The notes beneath the pieces were generated by a model. It did not search any database. It was not told the DNA's origin and saw only the letters and a program-made list of their open reading frames with translations. A stretch of 32,000 nt of DNA. Source: Candidatus Saccharimonadota bacterium (GTDB lineage: Bacteria > Patescibacteriota > Gracilibacteria > BD1-5 > UBA6164). A program made the translations under genes and the position numbers. Below are positions 1,358 through 30,257 of this stretch, piece after piece. The stretch is from positions 390,001 to 422,000 of the forward strand of contig OZ245768.1 in assembly GCA_965227835.1 (NCBI GenBank). The letters run 5' to 3'. Numbering within the stretch: position 1 is the first letter of the stretch; each line of letters begins with the position of its first letter.

Positions 1358-2731
1358 TTATTTTATAAATTCACTTTCAAAGATTTCTAAAAATAATTTT
1401 GTTATATAGCTAATTATACTATTTCAAAAAATAAATGTAATTACAAATGAAGCTACAATATATGGCGCAAAAGAAAAAGTTCTTAATATTTTTAAATTTT
1501 TTATTTTCATAAATCAATTTGTTTTTTTTTCAATATGGTGATTATTTACCAAGCTAAAAGATTTTTTTATTAATAAGGAAGTTTCTTTATCTATAGGATT
1601 TGATATTTTTGAAAAGTATAATCATGGGTTAGGGTATAATAGATAGTTTTTTTTCTTTTTTTCTTTTTCATTAGGTTCAATATATCATAAAATAGCTTGC
1701 CTCCCCAACATCTTAACCAAATATTCTTTATCCACAATATCACCCTCTTTCAAATCTCTTATATTAATAAATTTCATCTCAGAAATATGAAAAGTAATCT
1801 TATAAGCATAAAAAAGAACTCTAAAAATAATATATATTCATATATATAAAGTAAAAATTAAAAACAAGTACCCTAAAATTTCACTTGGATTTTTGATATA
1901 CTCATAAAATACAAAACCCAATAAAATAATAAATAAAATGACCAAAAACACATTTCAAACTAAATCTAGTCTTAACTTCAACCTATTAGATAAATATTTT
2001 TTAATTCTAACAACTAAAAATTTAAATAAATACAATCATCCAATAAAAATACCAACCAAAGCAAAAATTAAATAAAAATGATATTTTTCAAATATATTCC
2101 CTTCTCCTATAAGGAGAGGGTTTAGGGGTGAGGTTTTTAAACTATCAAACAAATAAACCCTACTGAGTCTAATACTTACAAAAATAAGTAAAAATACCAC
2201 TAACCATTTTAAAATTATAGACAGAGATTTTCATCATTTATTATTTTTATAAATTTTCCACCTATCCCACAAATCATTTTTTATCTGATAAAAAAGAGAC
2301 TTTACATATCATTTTTGAAAAATACATCTTCCCAAATAAAACCGAATAAAATACAAAAACATATAGGTCAAAACTATAATGGCTAAGTTACCAATAAAAG
2401 ATATTACTCAAATATGAGGAATAAAAAGAGATAAAACTAATAAATACTTAGCATCTCAAGCTGACCAAATTCAAAAATAATACAATATAAAACTTACAAA
2501 AAAAGTTAGAAATATTTGTAAAAATAAGTATAAAATCTTAACATGACTTAAATCTATAAAAGGTATAAGATTATAAAAATTGAAAATAAAAATATAATAA
2601 AAAGGCACAATAACAATTAAATATCCCAAATAAATATTGGGGATTTTTTTTTCTTTTAAATCTGAATTAACAATTCTGTAGTTTAAATACAGAAATAAGA
2701 CTACAATAATTATAATAGGAATATAAATCAT
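1358..2731 (-). CDS. polytopic membrane protein with A24 prepilin-peptidase-like N-terminal domain
   Basis: ORF-track fragment 2471..2731 reads through in-frame TGAs into a single 458-codon ORF, checked codon by codon. Its TAA (1358-1360) abuts the TAA of the convergent radical-SAM gene inside the palindrome TAATTA (1355-1360). There are many hydrophobic spans. NSDLKEKKIPN and FGIWSAGDAKYLLVLSLF resemble the two catalytic-Asp motifs (D..[RK].IPN and G.GD.KL) of A24 peptidases of the CpaA/TadV/FlaK type. The C-terminal half is unassigned. Confidence 0.6.
2099..2131 (-). repeat. short palindromic GEG-type repeat element, copy 1 (inside the membrane-protein CDS)
   Basis: cccttctcctataaggagagggtttaggggtga. 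Its reverse complement, tcacccctaaaccctctccttataggagaaggg, aligns at about 28/34 positions with tcaccccccaatccctctccttagaggagagggg at 31392-31425. The core is an inverted repeat (ctctcctta.aggagag). It is translated in frame as ...TSPLNPLLIGEG... Confidence 0.6.
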
Positions 2732-8641: not shown

Positions 8642-9760
8642 TTAATATTCTAAATTAGGATAGTTCATATTTACTTCTTGGAAATGTATTCTTTGTCTTT
8701 CTCTTACTGTTTTTATCATTTCATTGCTGGGGTTCATTTCTTTAAATAAAATGTCCATTTCACTTACTACATAATCTATTTCTTCATTTATTTCTTTACC
8801 TAAATCTGTGAAAAGAGCATACTTTTTTATTACTTTTTGTAGGAATTTTGTCTTTATGTAAAAAAGAATTATTTTTTCAAACCATCATTTATCATCTCAA
8901 AGAGCTCAAGAAAGGTATGCTTTCATTATTATATACATAGTAGGGGCAAAGGCATGGTATCATAGAAACACTCAGTGTATATGTCTAGCATCTGGTCTTA
9001 TGGCTGAATAATATTTTTCTTCTTTTGAGTTTAGGATTACTGGATCAAACTGCATAAGTAAATTTAGTTTATTATGAGACGATTCGTGTATTACGGCTTC
9101 CAAATTGTTTATTTCGGGAGTATTTGAATCTATAGTATATCATAGATAAAGATGTCCTACACATTCTTTATAACTAGCTGAATTGTGAATAGATTTTGCT
9201 GTACCCAAGGGTATTATTTTTGTTATAATTTGATTTAGTTCATCATATATTCACCTATCTACTTTTTTTAGAAGTTCAAAAGTTTTTTTATAAACTTCTA
9301 GCCACTCTTGTTTACTTTTTTCTCACCAATTTCAAGCTACAGCTCAAAGTTGTTTGTGTTCTGGATGGGCATCTCTTCAATTATAGGGGTTATTGTCTGT
9401 ATCTGTGAGTCTGATTTGAGTTCAATAAATTTTATCTCATTTGTTTTGTGATAATTTATCTGAAGATATTCATTCCTCTAAAAATATTTCTATTTCTTCC
9501 TTTAATTTAATGATTTCTATCTCTGGGGATGTATTTTCATTTAGACTTATTACTATTCAATTTATCAAAGAGGATATATCTGCATTTAGTATAAAATTTT
9601 TACAATCTTTTTTTAAAAGCTTTTCTATTTCTTCTTTTAATATTCATTTTTCTTGTAAATTTTTTAAATCATCTAATAGTTTTTGATAATATTTTTGAAA
9701 ATAATTTTTTAATAGGGGAGAGTCCTTGGTTCATAAAACATAGTATTTTAATTCTTTCAT
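8642..9760 (-). CDS. HEXXH-motif domain protein (peptide-modification-associated family candidate)
   Basis: 373 codons checked, from ATG at 9758-9760 to TAA at 8642-8644, 11 nt upstream of the DUF2130-like gene start. HESSH is at 9074-9088 in the context NNLEAVIHESSHNKLNLL, followed by RPDARHIHGVFLGYHAF. From memory this resembles the HEXXH-motif domain family found next to radical SAM/SPASM maturases. It needs an HMM search. Confidence 0.7.
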
Positions 9761-9942: not shown

Positions 9943-10686
9943 ATGGATACAAGTTTTCATAATATAAAGGCTGATAGTTATGAGGTAACTAGGGTTAATA
10001 AACTGGTGAAAAACACCTATATTACCATCGGTATAGGGATTATGCTTAGTGCTATATCCTCTTATTTTACTTTGAATGTTAATATAAGTTTGTTTCCACT
10101 TATATTGATGCTTGCCTCTATGTTTGGTCTAATTTTTGCAATTAGTCATTTCAAAAATAGTGCTATTGGTTTGTTCCTCTTTTTTGCTTTTACAGCACTT
10201 ATGGGAGCTTTCGTAGGACCGGCTATAGGTCTTTACCTAGATTTGCCTAACGGGAAAAACATTGTTACTATGGCATTTACTATGACAACTTTTGTATTTA
10301 TAAGTTTGTCTTGTTATGTTCATATTAGCAAAAAAGAATTCAGCTTTATCGGAGGTTTTCTTTTTACTGGATTGATATTGCTAATTGTTGCAATGATACT
10401 CAATATTTTTTTCTATCATCCTGTCTTCCATTTGGTGATAAGTTGTGTGGCTGTTCTTGTATTTTCTGGTTTTATTTTATATGATACTTCTAGAATGGTA
10501 CATGAACATAATGGTAACTATATTGAGTTAGCATTGTCGCAATTCTTAAATATTTTTAATCTATTCATACATTTATTATCCATTCTTGGGATACTTTCTG
10601 ATGATTGATTAAGAAAAATAAAAGGAGTTTACCTAAAACACCCTGCTTTGAAAAAAGCAGGGTGGTTTTTTAAAATTCCATATTAA
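9943..10686 (+). CDS. Bax inhibitor-1/YccA family membrane protein (ancestral stop TGA at 10606-10608; reads on to TAA 10684-10686 under table 25)
   Basis: Strong SD aggaggt 7 nt upstream of the ATG. Seven-TM-like profile with the C-terminal LYDTSRM...LFIHLLSILGI signature of the BI-1/YccA family. All 14 Gly are GGN, with no internal TGA. GC is visibly higher than in the flanks. The TGA after ...SDD is followed by an intrinsic terminator that lies inside the table-25 extension. Confidence 0.85.
10639..10671 (+). terminator. intrinsic terminator of the BI-1 gene
   Basis: caccctgct-ttgaaaaa-agcagggtg followed by gtttttt. Confidence 0.8.
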
Positions 10687-10814: not shown

Positions 10815-12713
10815 ATGGGGACATCTTTAAGTACAAGAGAATCTTTTTGATGATTATCAGAATCAAGTGAAGAAAATAATACTTCAGAGTATATAAGTGA
10901 TAATCCAATTATAGTTGAGGTGGAGCAAAAAATAGCTGAAATAAAAAAGCTATATGATTCTTGAGAGCAAAGTAAAAATGAATATCTTAATTGAGTTCTT
11001 GAATCTTTGGAAGACCTTCTTGAAAGAATTAAGAAAGATAAAAGTGGTGTTTCTTTTGAGACTAAAGCTCATATTTATGATTTGAGAAAAGATGCAATTT
11101 TATGATTATTAGAATGAAAAGTTATAGACTATAATACTGTAGAAAGTAGAGATATAGAGAGAAATGAAGTTTTAGATAGTTTGATAAACTATGATAACTT
11201 TTCCTTAAATGAGAATTTCTTTGACAATTATATAGAAGAATATAAAAAATATAATCCTGATAGTCTTGTAAAAATGAAAAAAGAAAAAATAAAATTACTC
11301 TCAGATAAATTTTTGAAAAATAATGAGGAATTTGAAAATACTGTAAGAAATATGCAATATTTCTACGATGCTAATCTAGAATATATTAATTATAATTTTG
11401 AAGACATTCTTTTAAATGAATATAGCTATAATTTGTTTTCTTCTATTTGACAAAAAGATATAGATAGATTTTTAGATAAAAAACAAAATCTTTGAATAAC
11501 AAATAATTTTTTTAATAAAAATGATTTATTATCTATATTTGAAAAATTTTTAGAAGATGATACTTATTTAGATAAATATTTAGGCCTATCAAATACTTCT
11601 TTATTTAAAGCTAGAATTATAGGAATAAGTAGTAGAATGAAGATAGAAGATTTGGAATATTTTGCCGATTTATTTCAATGATTTAATGGTTTTTCTGTTT
11701 GGTTATGACATAGATTGGAGTATATACTTGATTGAGAGTATGGTGCCTATAATATAAGATCTATTTTAAATAGTAAAAAGTTAGAAAAATATTTTAAAGT
11801 TTGAAAGCTTAATTTACATGAATTAGAAACATTTATTTTGAGTTTAAAATATTATGATTTTTCAAGAAAAAAATTAGATATAAATAAATATGCAAAATTA
11901 CTTGATAGACTATATGATAAATGATATAAAATTACAAACAATATTGATTTTTTAACCTTAGCTTCTCAATTAGATACTATAGAGGAGTTTTGATTGGAAG
12001 ATATGATAGTTGAAAATAATATTTCAAACTTTTCTCGTTTTACTAAAGAAGATTTAATTAGATTAAAAAATGATTTTGAAGATATTGAAAATAAAGATAG
12101 AAAAATAGCTTTATTGGTATTTTCCAAATCAGATCACAACTGAGTATTTTCTATACATAAATTTTTACCAAATAAGAAAATCCCAGAGGATTATAAAATA
12201 GTTTATTATGAAGTGAATTGAGAGAGTGATTTCTATGGTATTTTGGATAGATATAAATGAGCTGAACAGAAAATAGATTTAATGGTTTTAGCTTGACATG
12301 GTAATGAGGATTTAGTTCAACTAGGATGAACACCTAAAAGGGATTTAATTGGTGTTAATCTTGAAGAAAGTAGAGATTACTATCTAAGCTCATATGATGA
12401 ACAATATCTTACCAGATTTGATAGTGATGAAATCTCATCTTTTGTTGATAGTTTTTGAGAAAACTCTAATATTATTCTTCATTCTTGTATAGCTTGAAAA
12501 TGAGAAAAATCTACGGCTAAAGCAATATCCTCTGCTTTATGAAGTAATGTTACTATATATGGAGCAGATGAAAGTATACAAAATACTAATATTTCCTTTT
12601 GAGATTGATGAGAAATAAAGTCTGTAGAGTTTTGATCTTTTTTACAAAAAATAAATACTGTTATTTATAGTAATTGAAATTTGTTTGAATGAGAAAATTG
12701 AGAACAAGTTTAG
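10815..12713 (+). CDS. hypothetical 632-aa protein with C-terminal caspase/CHAT/CPD-like (clan CD-type His-Cys dyad) domain
   Basis: 633 codons translated triplet by triplet, from ATG at 10815 to TAG at 12711-12713, with many in-frame TGA. The C-terminal ~200 aa reads ALLVFSKSDHNG...DLMVLAGHGNEDLVQLGG (His codon 12297-12299) ...SNIILHSCIAGKGEKSTAKAISSALGSNVTIYGADESI (Cys codon 12486-12488). This is the xGHG / hhhhxxC pattern of caspase-fold peptidases (CHAT, DUF4347, C80 CPD). Confidence 0.7.
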
Positions 12714-13324: not shown

Positions 13325-13720
13325 CTACATATCTAAAAGCCTATAGTCTTTATCTATCTCCAAAAAATCATTTTTTATACTTAATTTAAAATTAATTGAA
13401 TCACTTGTTTTTCATGACAAAATATATTCTATTTCATCAATTATAATTCAAGTGCTTGTATTTGCTGTAGAACAATTATCTAAGTTTAGGTAAAAATTAT
13501 TTAAATTGGAGTTGGAGGCTCAGCTTCAAAATATATTTTCAATACATTCTCCAAAACTGAAAAAAAGATAATTTGTATTTTTATAAATATTTGAATTGTT
13601 TATGCTTTTTGTATTTTCTCAAATCAATTTAAAAACTCAAAAAACAGCCATACTTAACAACACAGAAGCCACTACAACTTCTATTAGTGAAAAAGCTTTT
13701 TTCTTTTTTTTGATTAACAT
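13325..13720 (-). CDS. type IV pilin-like / pseudopilin protein (prepilin-type N-terminal motif)
   Basis: 132 codons checked. The N-terminus MLIKKKKKAFSLIEVVVASVLLSMAVFG carries the [KR][GA]F[ST]LIE cleavage/methylation-type motif (13679-13699) followed by a hydrophobic helix. TAG at 13325-13327. Confidence 0.75.
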
Positions 13721-16492: not shown

Positions 16493-17527
16493 ATGTTAAA
16501 AGAAATTTTACAGATGTCTATAGACTTAAAAGCTTCAGATATAATACTTTCTTCATGATCAAAAGCTAGTTTAAAAATATGATGAGAAGTTAAATTTATA
16601 GAAGATAAAGAAGTTATTTCAAAGCAGTATATGCAAAATATAGTTTTTTCAACTATGAGTGAAAACCAGAAAAACAGATTTATAGCAGAAAAAGAGCTTG
16701 ATTATGGTATATGATTTGGTAAACATAGATTTAGAGTAAACGCATTTGTTACTAGAAAAGGTATGGGAATAGTATGCAGACCTATTCCAACAGAGGTTCC
16801 TGAATTTGATAATTTATGATTACCTCCAATAGTAAAAACTCTAGCTCACAGGAGGAATTGATTAGTTTTAATAACATGACCTGTATGATCTTGAAAATCT
16901 ACATCTATGATTTCATTGGTAAATGAGATAAATAATACAGAAAATAAACATATAATAACCGTAGAAGATCCAATAGAATTTATATTTGAAAATAACAAAA
17001 GCTTGATAGAACAAAGAGAAGTTGGTACTTCAACTCTTAGTTTTGATAATTGATTGAAATATGCTCTTAGACAAGCTCCTGATGTTATAATGCTTGGGGA
17101 AATGAGAGATATAGAGACTTTCAGATTAGCTTTGAGAGCAGCTGAAACAGGAAATTTAGTATTTGCCACTCTACATACTTCTTGAGTTGCTAGAACTATT
17201 TCTAGAGTAATAGATATGTTTCCAGCTTGAGAGAAAGATCAAATAAGGGGGCAATTATCCGAATCACTTATATGAGTTATATGGCAAAAATTATTAAAAT
17301 CAAAAGATGAAAAGGGGAGAGTACTTGCTACAGAAGTTATGATAAACAACACATCTATTTCAAACATTATAAGGAAGTGAGATACTCATCAGATAAACTC
17401 TGTTATAGAAACTTCTTTGACAGAGGGTATGATTAATATGAAAAGGACTTTAGAAAAACTTTATGAGCATTGAAAAATAAGTGAAGATTTGTACAAGGAA
17501 GAAATTAAAATGCTTTGAACAGATTAA
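16493..17527 (+). CDS. pilT: type IV pilus retraction ATPase PilT
   Basis: 345 codons checked. Walker A GPVGSGKS at 16877-16900 is encoded tga-cct-gta-tga-tct-tga-aaa-tct. Other motifs: [40 protein letters not shown] (His box) and [11 protein letters not shown] at 17525-17527. Confidence 0.9.
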
Positions 17528-18614: not shown

Positions 18615-19217
18615 TTAGATTTGTTCTTCTTTTATTGGTCTTAATTTTTCCTTAACAACATCTATCCTAGTTATCATTTCTCTTATATTTTTTGTTTTTT
18701 CCTTTTCCTTTGTTATTTCTTTTGATATAGAAGTTATTTCCAGAGCCTTTTCTCACATTTTTATAATATTTTCTATCATATTAGTTTTATAAGGATGATC
18801 TGACTCATTTAACATTTTTGAAATTTCAAGATTCTTTAAAAGAATTCATACATGAGTAATAATAGGGTAATCTTTTTGACTTATAAAGTAATTTAAAACA
18901 TCTTCGCTTATATAAATAGATGTAATTCAAATTTGGTGCCCCACTTTTGATTTTTCTCCATTATTTATATTATCTTCTATTAAATGCTCTGGGGTTATTT
19001 TTTTGGGTATTAGTTTACTAACTAACCTATTAACACGCTTAATTATATCTAGTTTCTCTTTTTTATATTCAATTCCTCAGCTAATTTGAAATTTTCAGTC
19101 TGATAGTTCTATAAAAATATTTTTTCAATTTTCTGGTATTTCAATTAAAGAAGATAGTAAATTTGTTTCTTCTATAGGATGGTTACTACTGTTTATATCT
19201 ACTATTTCATTTTTCAT
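18615..19217 (-). CDS. hypothetical protein (200 aa)
   Basis: 201 codons checked, from ATG at 19215-19217 to TAA at 18615-18617, with several in-frame TGA. I recognise no motif. Confidence 0.55.
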
Positions 19218-19331: not shown

Positions 19332-20535
19332 GGGTCTGTTGCAAATTAGATTTTAGCTATTAAAAAGAGAAAAAAGAGATATAATTAGATAGTAATTATA
19401 TTCTAAGAAAATACCTATGTGAGAATCAAATCAAATAAGTTTTGTTATCCTAAACGAGCTAATTCCAGAAAATCATCAATATCGTAAATTTAAGAAATTG
19501 TGGAACTTTGATTGAGTAAATAAAATACTAAAAAATATAGATCTATGAAAAACTCATGTATGATATTGAGTAAAAAAATTATTTCTATGTTTACTAATCC
19601 AGTTTATGGAAGATCTATCAGATAGAGAGTTAGAGAAATATCTTGCAGAAAATTTAGCTGGTAAATGGTTTTGCTGATTTAAATTAACAGATAAAACTCC
19701 AGATTATAGTATATTCTCAAGAGCAAGAAAAAAGATATGAACAAATGAACTATCAAAGATATTTGAAGATTTAAAAAATCAATTATCAAATAAGGGGTAT
19801 ATGAGTGAAGTGTTTACATTTGTAGATGCTTCTCATTTAGTTACTAAAGCTAATTTATGGGAAGAAAGAGATAAATGAATAAAAGAATGATATGAAAAAA
19901 TGAATAATGAAACTCTTCCAAAAGTTGCTAATGATAAGGAAGCTAAAATTTGATCTAAGTGAAAAAATAAATTTTGGTATGGTTATAAAAAACACGCTAG
20001 TGTTGATATGCAATCTTGAATGATAAACAAGATAGCTATAACTCAAGCTAATGTAACAGATGCAAAGTGAATGAAACATGTATTACCAAATTCATGAGCA
20101 GTATATGCTGATAAGTGATATTGTATTTGACCAGCTATATTATCATCAAAAAAGAAGTGATTACATTTATGTGCAATAAAGAAGAATAATATGAAAGAGA
20201 AGGATAAGGATAAAGATAGATTTTATTCTAAACTTAGATCTCCTTATGAGAGAGTATTTTCAAAAATGAATCATAGAGTGAGATATAAATCTGTAGTAAA
20301 AAACCAGTTTACTGCATTTATGGAAGCTATATCTTTTAATCTCAAAAGATTGGTTGTATTAGAGGAAATCCCAATAGCTTAGATTAGTTTCCTTAGGTGG
20401 ATTTTGTCTAAAATCCTAAATTATATATAAAAATGGCTATAATTTAACAAAAAATAGATGAATTTTATAAATCTTTCATCTATTTAGTACTTTTCTTAAT
20501 TAAAACTCTTTTTAAAATCAAAACGCAACAGACCC
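19332..20535 (+). mobile_element. IS5-family insertion sequence (about 1.2 kb) with terminal inverted repeats and a 5-bp flanking direct repeat
   Basis: Left end gggtctgttgc at 19332-19342 and right end gcaacagaccc at 20525-20535 form a perfect 11-bp IR. AATAT lies immediately outside both ends (19327-19331 and 20536-20540). It contains one transposase ORF. Confidence 0.8.
19417..20382 (+). CDS. IS5-family DDE transposase (DUF772-type N-terminus)
   Basis: 322 codons translated. LIPENHQYRKF is typical of the InsH/DUF772 N-terminus. FVDASH, AVYADKGY and RSPYERVFSKM match the D, D, E regions of the IS5/IS4 superfamily. I count 17 in-frame TGA, for example in GYGVKK and ADKGY. TAG at 20380-20382. 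Confidence 0.85.
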
Positions 20536-20649: not shown

Positions 20650-20856
20650 GAAAAGCATTTGAATCTTGCAGACACAAGATGAGGCTCGAGGAAGAAAGTT
20701 TCTGCCTAAAAATAGAAATTATTAGAACCTTGCGGAGGTGAAATCCTTCGTCAAAAAAAATAAAATTAAGTAAAAGCTTTTTGGTGGCACCTTTCGTAAA
20801 TATTCAAAAATACGAACCAAAAGCACACATCTATATTATGTGTGTTTTTATTTTTT
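20650..20856 (+). promoter_or_regulatory. T-box riboswitch leader controlling aspS
   Basis: The antiterminator is canonical. Helix A1 is gcuuuu(u)gg (20776-20784) paired with ccaaaagc (20817-20824). The 7-nt bulge UGGCACC (20785-20791) matches the T-box UGGNACC. Helix A2 is uucgua/uacgaa (20793-20798 / 20811-20816). The competing terminator aaaagcacacau (20819-20830) / auguguguuuuu (20838-20849) plus a U-run reuses the A1 3' strand. The element lies 13 nt upstream of the aspS ATG. A candidate GAC-A specifier is at 20671-20674. Confidence 0.75.
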
Positions 20857-20868
20857 AATATTAAAAAA

Positions 20869-22945: not shown

Positions 22946-23371
22946 ATGTATTTTGCAAAAGTTTTTTTTCTTATTGCTATATTGCTACAATTATCATCCT
23001 GTATTTCTACTAATACATATAACAAATATAAAGGATGTGAAATTGTTAATGGTACTTTTATTGGTTTAAAAACTCCTGGAAAAATAGCATGCTTTGATAA
23101 AATACAGGGTGATGTTTTAAGGGTATATTATGAATCATATAGACATAGTAAATCTAGAACACTTATAAAATTTTCACTATATGATAAACTATCCAATATA
23201 TCAAAAAGTGAAAATCCTATTTCTAAATATACCATATCATCTAAAAAAAATCCTATTTATTTACTTAATGTATGCTATAATGGTTATCATCATAGACTTT
23301 ATGCTAAAGCTAATTATAAGGAATTGGAGTTTGAATTTCGTAAGTTAAAAAGTAGATTAAAAAGATGTTAA
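22946..23371 (+). CDS. putative lipoprotein (141 aa)
   Basis: Intact in the ORF track. Strong SD agaggaggg. Signal peptide with lipobox LQLSSC. All six Gly are GGN, with no TGA. Ends in TAA plus a strong terminator. Confidence 0.75.
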   Translation: MYFAKVFFLIAILLQLSSCISTNTYNKYKGCEIVNGTFIGLKTPGKIACFDKIQGDVLRVYYESYRHSKSRTLIKFSLYDKLSNISKSENPISKYTISSKKNPIYLLNVCYNGYHHRLYAKANYKELEFEFRKLKSRLKRC

Positions 23372-23390: not shown

Positions 23391-23428
23391 AAAAACTCCC
23401 CAAAACTTAAACTTTTTGGGGAGTTTTT
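23391..23428. terminator. bidirectional intrinsic terminator (15-bp stem)
   Basis: aaaaactccccaaaa-cttaaact-ttttggggagttttt. It lies between the lipoprotein stop (23371) and the giant ORF stop (23431). Confidence 0.8.
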
Positions 23429-23430
23429 CT

Positions 23431-26400
23431 TTACTCTATATTATCTTTTATATATTCTAAAGATTTTCAAGGATGATTAAACATAGTTATATCGTTATCT
23501 CATATTTCTTCCAAAGTAGGTATAGAAGAATCAAAGCCTTTATCTTTTAAGAAATCTTTTATCTTTGTATCACCAAGCATATCATAAATCAAAAGTAGTA
23601 TAGCATTTATATTTTCCTCATTTTTTTCTGATTTTTGATTTAAAATAGGTGTTAAATACTTATCTTTCATATATTTAAAAATCACTTTGTCTTTTCAAGA
23701 TAGGTTTATTCTCATCATTTCCACTTGGTATTTTAATATATAATCCTGTAAAACCCTATAATCATATCAGACTTTTCATATACCTTTATCTAAATTATTA
23801 GTAATATAGCTTAATCAGTAAATTTTGCCTCCAATTCATTTACTGAATTTTTTTTCTATCATTTTCTCTGGTATATCTATATCTGGATTTATCAATTTTA
23901 AAATTCTTACTATGTAGTTTTCACCTATAGCAAACATCATATTATTTTCTCCTTGATTCATTCATAAAAGAATCATAGCATAATAAGATTTTCTTGACTG
24001 TTCATCTAAAATAATTTCTATTGGATTTTCCTTTACTAAATTAAATAATATATGTGAAAAATGATTACTTATATCCATTAGTTTTGCCTTAGCTATATGT
24101 GTTGACATAACTTGTCAGACTAAATTATTATTTTTTTTACTAGATTTACTCCAAGTTGAATCTTCCCATAAGGTTGTTGAGAAATCTTGTATTACATCTC
24201 TAAGTATTTCTCTTTCTTCCTCTCAAAGTCTAAAAACTCACCTTTCTTTTTCGGGTATTTTTTGCCACTCCCTTTTTCTGTCTTTTATTATCTCATGTAC
24301 TTTTCTAAGTTTACCAATTTCTTCGTCTACATATCTAAAACTTTCCCCATTTGTATATAAAAAATCAAGAACTTCTCTTTGGTGTAAAAATGATATTGAA
24401 TCTAAAACCCAGTCAGGATCTAGAAATTTTAATTTGATTTGATAATCTCATAAAGAGCTTGTATATTCTTTTCAGAATATAGAATAATAAATATTTAGAA
24501 CTCTTTTTAAATTTTTTCTTGAAATTATTCCATATCAAAAGTTACCTTCACCATTTTCTGATTCTATAAATCTTGATATGTCAAGTAGGGAAGCTATATT
24601 TTCATTTCTTGCTACTAAATCAATTACTTCATCTGCGGTTCTATCATCTCCCACTCTTTCCATTTTATTTATTTTAAATTCTTCAATTATATCTAAAATA
24701 TCACTTATATCTATTGACATACTAGAATTAACATTGATATTCCTCTTGTTCATAAAATCAACTCTATTATCCTCATTTAAATACCTTCATTTTTTTTCTA
24801 GTACAAAATATAGAAAATATTGTCTCTGTAATGGATCAAGATTTCTGATGTATGAAAGTTCAGGATGTTTAAATTCATGATAATATAGTTCATTTGTTAT
24901 ATTATTAAAAATATCTGTAACAGAATCGTTTGGATAAAATACTATATTACCAAAATCTCTTTGTTTTGCTCTCTTTTCTCTTTTATCTTTAATTTCTCCT
25001 CTTCTTTTTTCTATATAACGATTATGAGGTATAGTTTTTGTTTCAAAATAGGGAAGAGGTATATTCACCACTAATGCTCATGGATTTACTTCTCCTTCTG
25101 TCTGTAAATAACCAAAAACTTGAAGTCATTTTATTTGTTCTCCATAATAATATTTTACAAGGTCCATATAATGAGGTGAAGTTATATCCAATCATTCTTG
25201 TATGGTTATTACTTCTTTGAGTGTATTGAAAAGACTATCTCAATACCTAAGAGCATATGTTGTTTTTATTTTTGTATCTTTGTAAAGACTATTTTTTTCT
25301 ATTCTTTTGAAAATTGATCATTCTCATGGGCTTATTATTTCTGGAATATAATATGAACTACTTGTAAGAAACTCCCAAAAAAATCTTACCCTTGATCTCA
25401 TAGTTTCTCTTTCCTCTTTTAATGGATTACTATAACCATGTACTCAATCAATAACTGTTAATCATCAAAGCTCTATTTCATCCTCAGGAAATACTTTTAT
25501 AGATTCAATATTTTCTCTCAAAAGATCTAAGAATTCTTTTGCTTTTACTTCTCTTTTTTTGAAATGCTCTGTTATAAAAAATTTCTGTCCTTCATAAATT
25601 TCAAAGATCATTCCATTATTTTCTATTTCATATCTTATACATGAATTAAAATCATCTTTGTTTATAAGTCTTTTATTTCCTTGAAACCAGCTATTTTTTT
25701 TAACACAATCTTCAGCTATTTTTATAAATTTATATTTTTCATATTCTTTTCTTAAATCTATTTTTTCTCAGTTTATTTTAATATCTATCAATTCAGCATA
25801 TTTTCATATTCCAGAATAAATATTATTTCTAAATGAATAATAATCTTTATCTCAAGAACCATCGATATCTAATCTATTTTGTATAAAGTGTCTTAGAAAG
25901 TGTATTATATCCATACTTTCTTCACTTATTTTTAGATTTTTATTTCTGTCTAGTTGATTAATTTCTTTAGTTAATTCACTTATTATACTATTTAGTGTTT
26001 TTATATTTAAGATAGCTCTATTATAGTTTATGTAATCAAAATGTATTTCTGGAGCTTTTAAATTCTTCGGTATAGTTTTATTTGGATTTTCCAACATATA
26101 TTTTAACAATTCTTCGCTAGCCTTTCTCTCTAGTAAACTTATAATAGTATCTCTTCTTTCTTCTTCTCTTTTTAATCTTAATTTTTTTAATCTTATCTCT
26201 TCCAAAAATACTTCTGGGTCATATCAAAAAAAATTTTGATATAATTGCTCCCTTCATCTTTTTATCCTGCTTTTTGTGATTTTCATTTCTGAGGCTTTGA
26301 AAGAAAAACTTTTTTCACCTAGAATTAATCATACATGAGTATTTGGATGAAATCATCCTCAACTTTCCATATATTCTCTTACATTTCTCTTGAAACTAGA

Positions 26401-27876
26401 ATATCTAAAAAGCATTGTTACTAGAGATCAATAGTATTTATCAGGATCTGCCATCATTTGAGTATATGAAGACTTTATATCTTGTATATAAGCATCATAA
26501 CTTTTATTATCTTCGTAAAAAGGTGAATCAATAGTTGTTCTTCTTTTATCAAAATATTGTCTAAAATCAAAACTATTCTCAAATCATATTTTTTTTAGTT
26601 CATCAGGTAGTATCCAAGCATCTATATTTTCTTTTATTATAAATGAATTTTCTTCATAAGAAGCTTTTTCAGGATCTATTCAAAATCACATTAGTTTTCT
26701 TATCATATTTGCACATCATACCAAATTTTCAAATGCTATATCAACTATTCTAGGTAGCCTTGATTCTCATAGAGTCATTTCAGACTCAGAAAACCATGAA
26801 AGAGTATTTAAATATCATAGCTTTTTAACTTTTTCAGGATATAGTCTATCATATATTTCTAATGTTTGTCTCCTAAGATTTTCTCTTGTTACTCAAATTA
26901 TTCAGGAATACTCTTCTGATTCTACTTCTACTGATTCTAGTATAGATCCTATAGTATCTCATTTTTTTATTACTATTTCGTGTTCTGACATAAATCTATA
27001 TCTTGTTACTTTTGAAGAGTTTTCATCAAAAACTACTTTTAATTCTCACATATCCAGTAAATCTCTTCAGTTGTCTAAATAAATCTTAGTTCATTTTACT
27101 ATTACTTTCCATCAAGGTTGTATATGAGTGTCCTTAAAATCTATAATTTGGGGTTTATATCAAGAGTATTCTCACTTTTTTTCTCTAAGCATTACCGAAA
27201 ATTCTCTTCATCATAAAAATTGGAAAACTACTTCTGTCCCTTTCAATAAACTTAAATTATCATATTTTTCTGCCAATACCTCATCAGCAACTATTTTTCT
27301 TATTACACTTCAAAGATGTGTTATTTCTGGTGTTTCATATACAGCCATAGTTTTTTCTCCTCTATCTACATATATATAGTGAGTAAGATTTTTATTTGGT
27401 TGTTTTATTACTATTCTATCATTTTCTATTTCTAGTTCATCATTATCTTCTACTTCTATCCGATCAGCTCTTTCTCAAAGTTCTCTATTTCATATTACTT
27501 GATTAACTACTTCTCCTAGAGAATCTCATGTGTTTAAATCTACTTTTCATAAGGCTAAAGCATTCATATATTCAATATCATTTAATCAAGGATCTTCATT
27601 AATTTGATTTAGTTTATATATAAATTCTGGTTCATTGTCTTTTTTATGTTCATATATATCTTCTAGGTATATTATATTTTCTCTTTGTTTATTTCATATA
27701 ATTCAAGTAGCTATGGGAGTATAATAAGATTTATTTTGTCCTGTGCTAGATGATACTATATCAAGAAACTTTAGATTGTATCAATCTAAAGTTTCTTGTA
27801 TTTCTATTTCTGGTAGACTAGCATTAGCAGTTCCAGCTAAAAGAGCTCATACTATTAATAATTTCTTTTTGCTCAT
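23431..27876 (-). CDS. giant secreted protein, 1481 aa, no recognisable domain
   Basis: All 1482 codons were read individually, and there is no TAA/TAG from 27876 down to TAA at 23431-23433. ORF-track fragments 23500..23685, 24535..24753, 24787..25071 and 25852..26205 are all in this one frame, separated only by TGA. The N-terminus MSKKKLLIVGALLAGTANA/SLPE is a Sec signal peptide with an AxA site. Confidence 0.8.
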
Positions 27877-28042
27877 TTTTTGTTTTTGTTTTTATTTTGA
27901 TTTTTTGAGTTTTCAATTTGATTTTTATGTTAAAAATCTTTTTAAATTTTTTTAAAATTTATTTTCATTGTTTTCTTTTTATATCACGATATCTCCCTTG
28001 ATATTCATTAAATTTTTGTGGAAACATACTATCATAATAATA

Positions 28043-28885
28043 TTTATATATACTTCATAACTCACCAGCTCATATTTCCATTCTTTCCCATAATCCTACG
28101 AAGGTTTTGTCATCAGAACTTTCTAATAAACTTAACCAAAAATCCATTAATTCCTTTCCAATTTTTTCCCTGTTTTCTCATTCTTCTAAGACAATCTCTT
28201 CCATAGGTTTACATAACTTGCCTTCTCCCCAATAGTTAGCTGCACTATTATCTACAACTACGGGTAAATCTTCATTTATAATTTCTGTTTGAGTTGAACA
28301 CATTTTATTTAAATTGCTTATTATAGAATTTATTCTACTATTTATATTTGAAATATTTTCACTATTTTTTTCTTCTCTATTTATTAGATAATCATGCATT
28401 TCATTAAGAATATCAAACACTCCATCAATACTTTCTTTTCTTCTATTAGATAATTCTGTTTCTATTTCTCTTATTCTTTCATCAAAAACTGTAAAATTTT
28501 CACCTGATTCTAGACTTAAACCAATAAATTGGCTATTTAAAGAATCTATTTTTTCCTGTAATATTGCTAAAGTAGATAAATTACTATTACCCATTCACAT
28601 TTCTTCTAGAAGATTTTCTATAGCATCTAACTGGTTTCTAAAATCTTGATTTTCTATCATAAGTCTTTCATTTTCTCTTGTAATTCTTTTATTATCATTT
28701 TGTAAATTTTCATTAACACATCATAAAGAATCTACTTCTCTTCCTAGAGCATCTAATTTTTCTCTTGTATCACCACCTATAATAAACTCAGATACTCCAG
28801 ATAACCAAGAGGAATTTTCATTATTACTTCCTTCTCCATTATTTTCTGGAATATCACATTCATATCTGTTTTCTAAATTTCCCAT
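28043..28885 (-). CDS. coiled-coil protein (280 aa), hypothetical
   Basis: 281 codons checked. It extends ORF-track fragment 28178..28594 in both directions across TGA. It starts MGNLENRYECDIPENNGEG, has heptad-like E/N/L-rich stretches, and ends in a W-rich tail. TAA at 28043-28045. Confidence 0.65.
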
Positions 28886-28937
28886 AAAAATTAAATTAAA
28901 AAATTATTTTATAAATTGTTTTGTTATTTTTTTATAT

Positions 28938-30197
28938 CTATCTTGTAAATGTTTTCTCTTTCTCTACATCCTCTCTTCCTGATTTAAAAGCAGGCCGTTC
29001 TGGTTTAATTATTTTGAATCAACCTTGCCTGTTTCTTATTAATAATTTACCTTCTAAACTTTCAAAAGATACTTTAAGAATGGTAACTTCCTCAACTTGT
29101 TTTCATCATTCTTTTCTATAAACCACAAAATTAGTATGTTCAGGATTATCTTTATTTCTTTCAATTTTGTTAGGTATATAAAACTTTATAGCTCTTGGGT
29201 TGGTTCATACACTAATACGTCTTTCACCCATATCATAATCTAATTTAAAACCCTTAGATTCTTTTCTAAGTCTATCTTGATGTGCTTTTCCAACAAATTC
29301 ACTCACATATGGTTCATCATATATAGTAACATCAGGATTTTCCTCTAAATCTTCAGGACTACTTACAGCCTCACTTTTACTTGCTTTTGGTTCTGTTTCA
29401 GCTGAAGTATTACTATCAGAGACATTACTATCATGACTTGTTTCTGTGTCTTCTATTTCTTCTAATTCTAGTGGAATTTCATTTGGTACTTGTACTACTG
29501 CTCCTTGACTCTCACTTAGATTTTCTTCTTCGTCTAGTTCTACTTCTACTTTGGGTTCTTGTATTATTGTAGCCTCTTGGCTTTTTGGTAATTCAGTTCC
29601 TTTAATCTGTCATATATATCTTTCTTTTCTAGTATTTGGATTATATATATATATATTGTTTCAACTTATAACTACTTTTTCTTCTAGTAAAATCTTATGA
29701 CTCTCTTCATTCAAATCTAAATCTGATTCTTTAAGTCACATATTTTGTTCAAGGATATTGAACACACTATCTCAAGATTTTACATCAAATTCATAATCAT
29801 ACTGCTTAACTTCCAATCATTCTATTCAAAATCATTGTTCTACTTTTCATACTGGAATCAATTTATCACCATTTTTTCTGTAAACAATATCTCATTCTAA
29901 TTTCAATATAATTCTGTCTTCTGGCCACACCATATCTGCTTTTTTGTTCCATATAATTCTATTTCATTTAGTGGTCAATGCATTTATATAACTAAGCCAG
30001 TCTCAAGAGTGTCTTATTTCTAATCATTTTGGGCTTCTAAGCTCTCCTATTATAGAATCACTTATTTGTTCTTTTAGTTCATCCATTTTTAAAGAAGATG
30101 TTTGTTCTATCATCTCTTTTATAGCTTTTAGAGAGAGATTTTCCTCTCTTGCTTGTCTAAAGCTTTCAAAATGGATTTCTCAAAAATTTTCGCTCAT
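28938..30197 (-). CDS. hypothetical acidic protein (419 aa)
   Basis: 420 codons checked triplet by triplet, from ATG at 30195-30197 to TAG at 28938-28940. The central region is highly acidic and low-complexity (EPKVEVELDEEENLSES...EEIEDTETSHDSNVSDSNTSAETEP). I recognise no motif. Confidence 0.65.
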
Positions 30198-30228
30198 AAT
30201 TTTTTTATATTTTTAATTTTACACGTAA

Positions 30229-30257
30229 ATTGTAACATATATTTTTTTGAGAGTCAA
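30229..30257 (-). promoter_or_regulatory. sigma70-like promoter with extended -10 for the minus-strand three-gene operon
   Basis: On the minus strand: ttgact (30252-30257), 17 nt, then tgt-tacaat (tacaat at 30229-30234). It lies about 30 nt upstream of the ATG at 30197. Confidence 0.45.

What the first reader, a model, noticed from the sequence alone, without database searches (positions are those of the whole stretch)
23431..30257. Promoter-to-terminator three-gene operon encoding a 1481-aa secreted giant protein plus two unknown partners
A good extended -10 promoter (30229-30257) precedes a 419-aa acidic protein, a 280-aa coiled-coil protein and a 1481-aa protein with a clear Sec signal peptide (MSKKKLLIVGALLAGTANA). 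The operon ends at a 15-bp-stem terminator (23391-23428). None of the three shows a motif I can assign to any known family, and together they occupy more than 20 percent of the window. Large secreted orphan proteins are prime candidates for the cell-surface and host-attachment or predation machinery of episymbiotic CPR bacteria. This is my best candidate here for an undescribed system. In the standard-code track it is invisible, split into at least 6 fragments.
Basis: partly seen in the sequence, partly recalled or inferred. Interest (0 to 1): 0.75.

Follow-up and report, generated by a model that had tools for sequence, protein, structure and literature searches.

The report
Gracilibacteria-specific giant LysM/Cys-His exoprotein
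The 1481-residue secreted protein is real and belongs to an unannotated family of giant proteins found only in Gracilibacteria-class bacteria, probably cell-wall-binding thiol enzymes, but its two upstream partner genes occur only in this species, so there is no conserved three-gene system.

Summary
The window uses genetic code 25 (TGA = Gly). Three same-strand genes of 419, 308 and 1481 aa lie between a TTGACT-17-TGnTACAAT promoter-like site and a 15-bp-stem terminator. The giant starts with a Sec-type signal peptide and is under purifying selection (dN/dS 0.28).

The giant is not an orphan. An exhaustive HMMER search found 49 cluster representatives. A genome scan found 18 loci, all in Gracilibacteria, Peribacteria or UBA6164 MAGs. 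The family has no Pfam, NCBIfam, PHROG or PDB sequence match.

Family architecture:
- an N-terminal LysM module, confirmed by AlphaFold and Foldseek in a homologue;
- a domain with invariant Cys, Asn and His, with the Cys at a helix N-terminus and the His at the start of a strand;
- a variable coiled coil;
- an ~800-residue conserved C-terminal region.

The models are confident (pLDDT ~86), yet only the LysM module has a structural match.

The two upstream genes have homologues only in a strain of the same species, and in none of the 20 loci from other taxa. The "three-gene system" is therefore not conserved.

Best reading: an exported cell-wall-binding thiol hydrolase of a new family. Enzymatic activity and substrate are inferred, not shown.

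The parts
30229..30257 (-). Promoter-like site TTGACT - 17 nt - TACAAT with an upstream TG (extended -10). It sits in the divergent intergenic region shared with corA.
   Evidence: It is a consensus match only; such matches are not enriched over shuffles.
28938..30197 (-). A419, 419 aa. It has a conserved N-terminal domain (aa 1-205), an acidic linker (aa 206-300; 29 acidic and 3 basic residues) and a basic C-terminal domain (aa 301-419, pI 9.9). It has no signal peptide and is found only in this species.
   Evidence: dN/dS against L001 is 0.08 for the N part and 0.44 for the C part.
29748..29933 (-). A419 aa 89-150, a module weakly similar to G1481 aa 251-314 (beta-hairpin-like stretch followed by a 'KxGDS/T..ILE' motif).
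   Evidence: BLASTP 29% identity over 65 aa. Smith-Waterman score 72, z = 4.6, 0 of 500 shuffles reached it. Suggestive only.
27959..28885 (-). C308, 308 aa, acidic. It has a central coiled-coil-like region and an aromatic-rich C-terminal ~100 aa. It has no signal peptide and is found only in this species.
   Evidence: dN/dS is 0.76, based on few substitutions.
23431..27876 (-). G1481, 1481 aa (173 kDa), with 60 in-frame TGA (Gly) codons. It is a divergent member of a Gracilibacteria-specific family of giant proteins.
27820..27876 (-). Sec-type signal peptide, aa 1-19 (MSKKKLLIVGALLAGTANA|S).
   Evidence: Sequence inspection. It is kept in L001. About half of the family members have such an N-terminus.
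27127..27819 (-). N-terminal extension, aa 20-250. It has no counterpart in most family members, and its first 150 residues evolve fastest (dN/dS 0.56).
26917..27126 (-). Segment aa 251-320, aligned to the LysM module of the family. It is divergent in G1481.
   Evidence: Alignment A8. The LysM fold is shown for homologue P0003. No Pfam LysM hit in G1481 itself.
26272..26859 (-). Conserved Cys/His domain, aa 340-535. Cys388 (26713-26715), Asn512 and His514 (26335-26337) are invariant. Glu530 occupies a position that is E/D/N/Q in almost all members.
   Evidence: Alignment A3. In both AlphaFold models the Cys starts a helix and the His sits at or just before the start of a beta-strand.
25915..26271 (-). 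Variable helical or coiled-coil linker, aa 536-654. Its length varies from about 0 to about 450 aa across the family.
24742..25914 (-). Conserved region B, aa 655-1045, of alpha/beta type. Motifs: DFxxxFIQxRxD, NGxxID, GPxxxDGxH, MNxRTRFxFEF, PxExxEP, QIKxLQ, INxPIPYFD. It contains two further 'GD(S/T)' strand-helix units.
23434..24741 (-). Conserved region C, aa 1046-1481, mostly helical. In alignment A7 the invariant residues include Glu1105, Ser1141, Asp1144, Gln1146, Asn1251, Gly1254, His1272, Glu1310, Glu1319, Asn1320, Arg1324 and Glu1457 (16 invariant columns in all); Gly1143 is nearly invariant.
   Evidence: No PDB sequence hit and no Foldseek hit.
23391..23428 (.). Intrinsic-terminator-like hairpin with a 15-bp stem, an 8-nt loop and a T run. 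It is shared with the convergent ORF 22946-23371.

Best explanation
G1481 is a Sec-exported, divergent member of an undescribed family of giant proteins (about 1000-1600 aa) confined to the class Gracilibacteria, which here includes Peribacteria and UBA6164. Nearly all loci examined use genetic code 25.

The family has four parts:
- a LysM-type glycan-binding module;
- a domain with an invariant Cys, an invariant Asn-x-His and a following acidic or amide residue, in the order and secondary-structure setting of a papain-like (clan CA, NlpC/P60-like) thiol hydrolase;
- a variable coiled coil;
- an ~800-residue conserved C-terminal region with its own set of invariant polar residues.

Proposed mechanism, all of it inferred. 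After Sec export the protein docks on peptidoglycan, either the cell's own wall or that of a host cell, through the LysM-type module. It cuts or remodels the wall with the Cys/His domain. The C-terminal domain supplies a second, still unknown, catalytic or binding function.

A419 and C308 are real genes found only in this species. They are probably co-transcribed with G1481 and are accessory factors rather than parts of a conserved system.

Shown here: the gene structures, the genetic code, purifying selection, family membership, the taxonomic range, the LysM fold in a homologue, the invariant residues and the lack of conserved synteny. Inferred: enzymatic activity, substrate, localisation after export and co-transcription.
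For: **Code and genes.** Code 25 and the three gene structures.

**Real genes.**
- G1481 dN/dS is 0.28, against 0.095 for AspRS.
- The A419 N-terminal part has dN/dS 0.08.

**Family.**
- The exhaustive HMMER search found 49 cluster representatives at E < 1e-3 and 9 at E < 1e-30. There are two conserved blocks.
- The genome scan found 18 loci in GTDB species representatives, all titled Gracilibacteria, Peribacteria or UBA6164.
- Nearly all of these loci need TGA read as sense.
- phmmer E-values of G1481 against the family genes run from 1e-38 to 1e-85.

**LysM module.**
- Sub-threshold Pfam LysM hits fall at the same N-terminal place in P0003, P0004 and P0005.
- The AlphaFold model of P0003 residues 1-349 has pLDDT 85.5.
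- Its best Foldseek PDB matches are almost all LysM domains: probability up to 1.0, rmsd 2.1-2.5 A, TM-score 0.73-0.81 relative to isolated LysM domains.

**Cys/His domain.**
- Cys388, Asn512 and His514 are invariant in 28 sequences.
- Position +16 after the His is E/D/N/Q in nearly all members.
- In both models the Cys begins a helix and the His sits at or just before the start of a strand.
- The only hhalign alignment to MepS pairs GSLVPxYF with GDLVLF and NTHQSMFxGN with GRHVGIYIGN, so the family His is aligned with the His of the MepS GRHVGIYIGN motif, taken from general knowledge to be the catalytic His. The score is not significant.

**C-terminal region.** The model of P0015 has pLDDT 85.8, and the region has many invariant polar residues.

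**Export.** A signal peptide or N-terminal transmembrane segment is present in about half of the members. Some also have a C-terminal transmembrane segment followed by a basic tail.
Against: - No profile or fold search places the Cys/His domain in any known peptidase family:
  - Pfam scans of 28 domain sequences gave no recurrent family.
  - The PDB profile search was empty.
  - hhalign against MepS gave probability 1.25%.
  - Foldseek found no NlpC/P60 or papain catalytic-domain match with either model.
- Model coordinates could not be inspected, so whether Cys and His are close in space is unknown.
- In G1481 itself the LysM-equivalent segment is divergent and has no Pfam hit.
- About half of the family members have no signal peptide. 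That fits poorly with a purely extracytoplasmic wall enzyme, unless those members leave the cell by another route.
- No activity, expression or localisation data exist.
Confidence: 0.45

Rival explanations
1. Non-enzymatic surface protein. G1481 is a structural fibre or adhesin on the cell surface that recognises and holds a host cell. The conserved Cys and His would then have a structural or metal-binding role.
For: - It has a signal peptide.
- The first 150 residues evolve fastest (dN/dS 0.56 against 0.15-0.3 elsewhere), as expected for an exposed tip.
- Some family members have a C-terminal membrane anchor.
- Giant surface proteins are proposed as host-attachment factors in Vampirococcus (PMC8080830).
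Against: - It has no adhesin-type repeats (Ig-like, beta-helix, FG-GAP, cadherin) in Pfam.
- It has no internal repeats.
- The family is conserved along its whole length and has many invariant polar residues, typical of active sites.
- Half of the members lack a signal peptide.
Confidence: 0.2
2. Housekeeping autolysin. The family remodels the cell's own wall during growth and division, like LysM-NlpC/P60 enzymes (LytE, LytF, CwlS) or coiled-coil peptidases (CwlO, PcsB, RipC). It would have nothing to do with a host.
For: - It combines LysM, a Cys/His domain and a coiled coil.
- It is present in every Gracilibacteria lineage sampled, often as one or two copies, and sits among housekeeping genes (aspS and corA here).
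Against: - The same failures of membership as for the best explanation apply.
- No ftsEX-like partner is conserved next to it.
- The ~800-residue conserved C-terminal region has no counterpart in known autolysins.
Confidence: 0.2
3. A dedicated three-gene machine. A419, C308 and G1481 would be obligate partners of one undescribed system.
For: - The genes share one strand, have short gaps and have one promoter-like site and one terminator.
- A419 aa 89-150 weakly resembles G1481 aa 251-314.
- The order is kept in L001.
Against: - A419 and C308 have no homologue next to any of the family genes in the 20 loci from other taxa.
- No other neighbour is conserved across the family.
- A419 has no relative in the large protein index or in JGI metagenomes.
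- L001 is the same species (93% nucleotide identity), so its synteny carries no weight.
Confidence: 0.1
4. Relic of a phage or mobile element, for example a tape-measure-like or virion-associated lysin.
For: The weakest Foldseek hits in BFVD include tape-measure, minor tail and LT_GEWL proteins (E 0.02-0.8). An IS element lies 3 kb away.
Against: - None of those hits is significant.
- tblastn against 50,697 phage records found nothing.
- PHROGs gave nothing.
- No phage genes lie nearby, and the gene is chromosomal and vertically spread in 18 or more species.
Confidence: 0.05

Closest known systems
LysM-NlpC/P60 peptidoglycan endopeptidases (B. subtilis LytE/LytF/CwlS; the T. thermophilus enzyme in PDB 4xcm/4uz2)
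   Same: - An N-terminal LysM module is followed by a domain with an invariant Cys, then His, then a polar residue.
- The Cys sits at a helix N-terminus and the His at the start of a strand.
- Many members have an export signal.
- The LysM fold of homologue P0003 superposes on these proteins' LysM domains (rmsd ~2.2 A).
   Different: - The catalytic-domain similarity is not detectable by Pfam, PDB profile search, hhalign or Foldseek.
- About 125 residues, largely helical, separate Cys from His, against about 50 in NlpC/P60.
- The protein is 5-10 times longer, with an ~800-residue conserved C-terminal region of unknown fold.
Coiled-coil-bearing wall hydrolases CwlO, PcsB and RipC (from general knowledge)
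   Same: A long coiled coil is attached to a Cys-His peptidase domain.
   Different: In those enzymes the coiled coil is N-terminal and couples to FtsEX. Here it lies between the Cys/His domain and a large C-terminal domain, and no FtsEX-like neighbour is conserved.
Two-domain VirB1-type hydrolases of monoderm conjugation systems (SLT + CHAP; PrgK, TraG of pIP501, CwlT; described in PMC12102498)
   Same: They are large wall-active proteins combining a thiol peptidase domain with a second lytic domain, and LysM is sometimes added in Patescibacteria. Region C has an 'ES...SxGDFQ' pattern that recalls the SLT 'ES...GLMQ' motifs.
   Different: - No VirB4, VirD4 or other T4SS genes are in the window.
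- No SLT or CHAP hit was found by Pfam, PDB profile search or Foldseek. The only hints are LT_GEWL proteins in BFVD at E 0.2-0.8.
Giant surface proteins of Vampirococcus lugosii (Absconditabacteria), PMC8080830
   Same: They are giant (>1300 aa) envelope-associated proteins in a related code-25 lineage, proposed to mediate host contact.
   Different: Those proteins are described as carrying known interaction domains. Homology to this family was not tested here, and the paper does not describe a LysM + Cys/His family.

Membership tests
Gracilibacteria giant-protein family (unnamed; P0003-P0051, L002-L022) | Significant full-length sequence similarity to family members | tested here: met
   phmmer E-values run from 1.9e-67 down to 1e-3 for 49 representatives, and from 1e-38 to 1e-85 against code-25 translations of the family genes in the fetched loci.
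Gracilibacteria giant-protein family (unnamed; P0003-P0051, L002-L022) | Keeps the invariant residues of both conserved blocks | tested here: met
   G1481 keeps the family-invariant residues Cys388, Asn512, His514, Glu1105, Ser1141, Asp1144, Gln1146, Glu1310, Arg1324 and Glu1457, and the nearly invariant Gly1143. It departs at several highly but not fully conserved positions, for example 'ESY' becomes 'ESE' and 'YN' becomes 'YM'.
LysM domain (PF01476) | Match to the Pfam model above the gathering score | tested here: not met
   G1481 has no hit at E <= 1. Homologue P0003 scores 19.1 bits against a cut-off of 20.9. P0004 and P0005 give weaker hits at the same place.
LysM domain (PF01476) | beta-alpha-alpha-beta fold that superposes on solved LysM domains | tested here: inconclusive
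   Met for homologue P0003: AlphaFold pLDDT is above 90 over residues 30-100, and Foldseek gives LysM hits with probability up to 1.0, rmsd 2.1-2.5 A and TM-score 0.73-0.81. G1481 itself could not be modelled, because the tool refuses code-25 translations. Its aligned segment, aa 251-320, is divergent.
NlpC/P60 / papain-like clan CA thiol peptidases | Invariant Cys, then His, then a polar third residue, in that order | tested here: met
   Cys388 and His514 are invariant, and position 530 is E/D/N/Q in nearly all of 28 sequences.
NlpC/P60 / papain-like clan CA thiol peptidases | Cys at the N-terminus of a helix packed against a beta-sheet that carries the His | tested here: inconclusive
   DSSP on both models puts the Cys at the first residue of a helix and the His at or just before the start of a strand.
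NlpC/P60 / papain-like clan CA thiol peptidases | Detectable sequence or profile similarity to the family (PF00877, PF05257 or solved members) | tested here: not met
   Pfam scans of 28 domain sequences gave no peptidase family. The PDB profile search was empty. hhalign against MepS gave probability 1.25%.
NlpC/P60 / papain-like clan CA thiol peptidases | Fold similarity of the catalytic domain to solved members | tested here: not met
   Foldseek against the PDB returned no catalytic-domain hit with either the full-length model or the domain model. A large helical insertion may hide it; no TM-align-type search was available.
Lytic transglycosylase / lysozyme-like (SLT, GEWL) | Catalytic Glu-Ser motif followed by a GLMQ-type motif, with profile or fold similarity | tested here: not met
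   An 'ES(Y)...SxGD(F/Y)Q' pattern with invariant Glu1105, Ser1141, Asp1144 and Gln1146 exists, but its spacing is 35-50 residues. The PDB profile search was empty and Foldseek against the PDB was empty. BFVD gave only LT_GEWL proteins at E 0.21-0.79.
Sec-dependent secreted protein | N-terminal signal peptide with n-, h- and c-regions and an AxA cleavage site | tested here: met
   MSKKK / LLIVGALLAGT / ANA|S. It is kept in L001. This was judged by inspection and a hydropathy scan; SignalP was not available.
Operon (single transcription unit) | One transcript covering all three genes | not testable with these tools
   Only indirect evidence exists: the same strand, gaps of 52 and 82 nt, one promoter-like site upstream, one terminator downstream and none between.
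Conserved multi-gene system | Partners are syntenic with the core gene across taxa | tested here: not met
   Among 21 family loci, A419 and C308 homologues occur only in L001, the same species. No other neighbour cluster is shared beyond close relatives.

The most novel reading that the evidence does not exclude
The family is a lineage-defining, previously undescribed enzyme of the Gracilibacteria class. It would combine a LysM anchor with two catalytic domains of novel fold: a thiol hydrolase with no detectable relatives and an ~800-residue C-terminal domain. The cells would use it to open the wall of a host or prey cell during episymbiosis or predation. In this species the secreted version would have recruited two private accessory proteins, A419 (which shares a module with the giant) and C308.
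Probability: 0.2. Interest if true: 0.8.

Novelty: new variant of a known kind. Interest (0 to 1): 0.55.

Why it matters
Gracilibacteria and their relatives are uncultivated or barely cultivated. They have reduced genomes and are thought to live on other cells. How they attach to and breach a host is largely unknown.

Four properties make this family a concrete candidate for a lineage-specific envelope or host-interaction enzyme:
- it has 1000-1600 residues and is present in every sampled lineage of the class;
- it is often exported;
- it carries a wall-binding LysM module and an invariant Cys/His pair;
- it folds confidently in AlphaFold yet matches nothing solved.

It also shows how much is lost when code-25 genomes are read with table 11 or table 4. 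The public copies of these proteins carry Trp at 4-6% of positions where Gly belongs, which blocks both annotation and modelling.

The negative result matters as well. The tidy promoter-to-terminator "operon" is not a conserved system.

Tried and rejected
**Searches and tests that found nothing**
- Pfam, NCBIfam, PHROGs and PADLOC on the three proteins gave nothing except coiled-coil noise for C308.
- A PDB sequence search with G1481, and profile searches with the Cys/His domain and with region C, gave nothing.
- The word-indexed protein search was nearly useless for these low-complexity, AT-rich proteins:
  - G1481 found only itself.
  - A419 found nothing, not even itself.
  - The family profile found only 2 proteins.
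- The first genome scan, with G1481 as a single protein, found nothing, so the source genome is not among the GTDB representatives.
- Alignments A5 and A3 were too divergent for the locus finder. A 6-sequence alignment, A6, worked.
- The metagenome scan with A419 found nothing.
- tblastn against phage records found nothing.
- Foldseek with the full-length model against the PDB and BFVD gave no significant match.
- hhalign of the Cys/His profile against E. coli MepS was not significant.

- Code-25 translations could not be given to the exhaustive search or to the structure predictor.
- The table-4 (Trp) copy P0001 and correctly translated homologues were used instead.
- G1481, A419 and C308 themselves were therefore never modelled.

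**Ideas rejected**
- Assembly artefact or pseudogene: the ORF is intact in two assemblies and under purifying selection.
- Mycoplasma-type code 4: TGA sits at conserved Gly positions.
- Polymorphic toxin: the family is conserved end to end, with no variable C-terminal tip.
- T4SS or T4P component: no conserved linkage.
- The 17-bp hairpin inside the 5' end of the gene as a conserved regulatory element: it is degraded in L001.

Full report
**1. What is in the sequence**

The window has 25% G+C. Under table 11 it has almost no long ORFs, but when TGA is read as sense it is densely coding. TGA stands for Gly, not Trp. All three glycines of the PilT Walker A motif, the Gly of the CorA YGMN motif and both glycines of the radical-SAM FTGGEP motif are TGA codons, and TGA supplies 60-80% of the Gly codons in most genes. 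The window therefore comes from a code-25 organism.

On the minus strand between 23431 and 30197 lie three genes:
- A419: 28938-30197, 419 aa.
- C308: 27959-28885, 308 aa from the first ATG.
- G1481: 23431-27876, 1481 aa, with 60 in-frame TGA codons and hence 61 fragments under table 11.

The flanking signals are at the stated coordinates.
- The promoter-like site TTGACT-17-TGtTACAAT is at 30257-30229 and the 15-bp-stem terminator at 23391-23428.
- Promoter-like matches are not commoner here than in shuffled sequence (46 against 55.9), so the promoter rests on its position alone.
- The gaps between genes are 52 and 82 nt, with no terminator-like site between them.

G1481 starts with MSKKKLLIVGALLAGTANA|S, a classical Sec signal, which is kept in the second strain.

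**2. The genes are real**

A second assembly of the same species was found: L001, from ENA sample ERZ25074195, at 93-99% nucleotide identity. Against it:
- G1481 is 92% identical, intact, and has dN/dS 0.28. The first 150 residues are the least constrained, at 0.56.
- AspRS next door has 0.095.
- C308 has 0.76, based on few substitutions.
- The A419 orthologue is broken by two frameshifts on a contig of 4.36x coverage. Even so, its N-terminal part has dN/dS 0.08 and its C-terminal part 0.44, so the frameshifts are most likely sequencing errors.

**3. The giant protein belongs to a family**

Curated libraries gave nothing for G1481 or A419, and only coiled-coil noise for C308. The word-indexed search returned only G1481's own table-4 translation, P0001, which has Trp at each TGA.

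An exhaustive HMMER search with residues 241-1440 of P0001 found 49 cluster representatives at E < 1e-3 and 9 at E < 1e-30. About 25 of them are 1000-1600 aa long. There are two conserved blocks, at G1481 residues ~326-540 and ~790-1340.

Most representatives have 4-6% Trp and about 1% Gly, so they are code-25 proteins mistranslated with table 4.

A scan of one genome per GTDB species, using a 6-sequence alignment of the first block, returned 18 loci. All are titled Candidatus Gracilibacteria, Candidatus Peribacteria or Patescibacteria UBA6164. Their G+C ranges from 20% to 56%, and nearly all need TGA read as sense. Translated with table 25, their family genes match G1481 at E-values from 1e-38 to 1e-85.

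The family was not found in 50,697 phage records.

**4. Architecture of the family**

(a) *N-terminus.* About half of the members begin with a signal peptide or transmembrane segment. The other half begin directly with the next module. A subgroup ends in a transmembrane segment plus a Lys/Arg tail.

(b) *LysM module.*
- Pfam LysM hits just below threshold fall at the same place in P0003, P0004 and P0005.
- An AlphaFold model of P0003 residues 1-349 (28-sequence alignment, mean pLDDT 85.5) gives Foldseek PDB hits that are almost all LysM domains. Their probability reaches 1.0, rmsd is 2.1-2.5 A and the TM-score relative to isolated LysM domains is 0.73-0.81.
- The E-values are only 0.3-2, because the module is about 58 residues long.

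(c) *Cys/His domain, ~200 residues.*
- Its motifs are PRIVD...CAN..R, DAWxLPxEL, GSLVPxYF and HxNTHQxxFxGN.
- Cys388, Asn512 and His514 (G1481 numbering) are invariant in 28 sequences. The position 16 residues after the His is E/D/N/Q in almost all.
- In both models the Cys is the first residue of a helix and the His sits at or just before the start of a beta-strand. This is the arrangement of papain-like and NlpC/P60 thiol hydrolases.

(d) *Helical linker.* It varies from about 0 to about 450 residues.

(e) *Conserved C-terminal region, ~800 residues.* It has many invariant polar residues, including Glu1105, Ser1141, Asp1144, Gln1146, His1272, Glu1310, Asn1320, Arg1324 and Glu1457.

A full-length model of member P0015 (40-sequence alignment) has mean pLDDT 85.8 and pTM 0.64.

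**5. Tests that did not support a known fold**

No known fold was recovered for anything but LysM.
- Foldseek with the full-length model: best E = 0.29 in the PDB and 0.02 in BFVD, all implausible long helical alignments. A few LT_GEWL, lysozyme and tape-measure proteins appear at E 0.04-1.0.
- Foldseek with the N-terminal model: no catalytic-domain match.
- Profile searches of the PDB sequences with the Cys/His domain and with region C: empty.
- Pfam scans of all 28 Cys/His domains: no recurrent family.
- hhalign of the domain profile against E. coli MepS: probability 1.25%. Its single local alignment pairs GSLVPxYF with GDLVLF and the family His with the His of the MepS GRHVGIYIGN motif, taken from general knowledge to be the catalytic His. 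This is a consistent hint, not evidence.

The thiol-hydrolase reading therefore rests on residue invariance, residue order and secondary-structure setting. Membership of NlpC/P60 or any other clan CA family is not established. The idea that region C is lysozyme- or SLT-like (an ES...SxGDFQ pattern) failed every test and is kept only as a speculation.

**6. G1481 within the family**

G1481 keeps every invariant residue but is a divergent member, about 30% identical to its nearest relative. The exhaustive search found no closer cluster than its own.

It has a signal peptide and an N-terminal extension of about 250 residues that others lack. The segment aligned to the family's LysM module (aa 251-320) is degenerate.

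The same segment weakly resembles A419 aa 89-150: 29% identity, Smith-Waterman z = 4.6, and 0 of 500 shuffles reached the score.

**7. The partners are not conserved**

phmmer with A419 and C308 against all ORFs (table 25) of 21 family loci hit only L001. The neighbours of P0003 and P0005 are unrelated proteins.

Clustering of all neighbouring ORFs found no partner shared beyond close relatives. The larger clusters were antisense shadow ORFs of the giant gene itself.

A419 has no relative in the 5.8-billion-protein index or in JGI metagenomes.

In three loci the family gene is tandemly duplicated (L004, L014, L016). The conserved unit is therefore the giant gene alone. A419 and C308 are additions found only in this species, and they are probably co-transcribed with it.

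**8. Interpretation**

Most likely (confidence about 0.45), G1481 is an exported, wall-docking thiol hydrolase of a new family with a second, unknown C-terminal function.

Whether its target is the cell's own wall or a host's cannot be decided. The faster-evolving exposed N-terminus, and the clade's known investment in giant surface proteins (PMC8080830), lean towards host interaction. The universal presence of the family among housekeeping genes leans towards a core envelope function.

The rivals are a non-enzymatic adhesin, a housekeeping autolysin, a true three-gene machine and a phage relic. They are weighed in their own section.

**9. Verdict**

- The finding is a real, unannotated, lineage-specific protein family with a confidently predicted but unmatched fold. 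It is best described as a new variant of LysM-anchored wall enzymes.
- It is not a conserved three-gene system.
- Interest is moderate to high for specialists in candidate-phyla bacteria.

Noticed in passing
window 27762-27798: A perfect 17-bp inverted repeat with a 3-nt loop lies inside G1481 codons 27-39, just after the signal peptide. It is far longer than chance allows in 32 kb. In the second strain (L001) only 13 of 17 pairs remain, so it is probably not a conserved regulatory element.
   Followed up: partly
window 22946-23371 (+): A 141-aa lipoprotein-like ORF (MYFAKVFFLIAILLQLSSC...) lies convergent with G1481. It is only 57% identical to its L001 orthologue (dS 0.69, dN 0.27), while flanking genes are 92-100% identical. 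This is a local hot spot of divergence or a replaced allele.
   Followed up: partly
window 19417-20382 and 20845-20862; L001 10433-11026 and 14452-15417: The IS5-like transposase (DDE_Tnp_1) sits between the 200-aa ORF (18615-19217) and aspS in the window, but next to pilT in L001. A 594-bp stretch carrying a NYN-domain gene in L001 is absent from the window, at a point where the two alignment blocks overlap by 18 bp.
   Followed up: partly
window 27959-28885 and 9943-10686: C308 and the Bax-inhibitor-like membrane protein gene use TGA for few of their Gly codons (6 of 23 and 1 of 17). Other genes of the window use it for 60-80%. The reason is unknown; it could reflect expression level or foreign origin.
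   Followed up: no
L001 1324-2504: The A419 orthologue in the second strain is split by two frameshifts on a contig of 4.36x coverage. Both halves are still under purifying selection (dN/dS 0.08 and 0.44), so the frameshifts look like sequencing errors rather than decay.
   Followed up: yes
window 1358-2731, 13325-13720, 16493-17527: Scattered type IV pilus genes are present: a 457-aa membrane protein with a weak prepilin-peptidase (A24) match, a pseudopilin with an N-terminal methylation motif, and PilT. None is linked to the giant-protein family in other loci, apart from a pilin gene upstream in L003.
   Followed up: partly
window 10815-12713 (+) and 8642-9760 (-): Two further proteins have no Pfam family at gathering level. 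One is a 632-aa protein with no match. The other is a 372-aa protein containing an HESSH motif, with only a weak sub-threshold match.
   Followed up: no
L004 4430-11483; L014 4120-11262; L016 343-7408: The giant-protein family occurs as tandem paralogue pairs in UBA6164-like genomes. Both copies have N-terminal signal or transmembrane segments. In L002 the family gene is followed by a 619-aa protein with a faint PG_binding_1 hit and a protein of more than 4200 aa.
   Followed up: partly
public protein collections (P0001, P0002, P0006-P0051): Most public copies of this family are table-4 translations with Trp at every TGA (4-6% Trp, about 1% Gly). This probably explains why the family has escaped annotation, and it hampers modelling.
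   Followed up: yes
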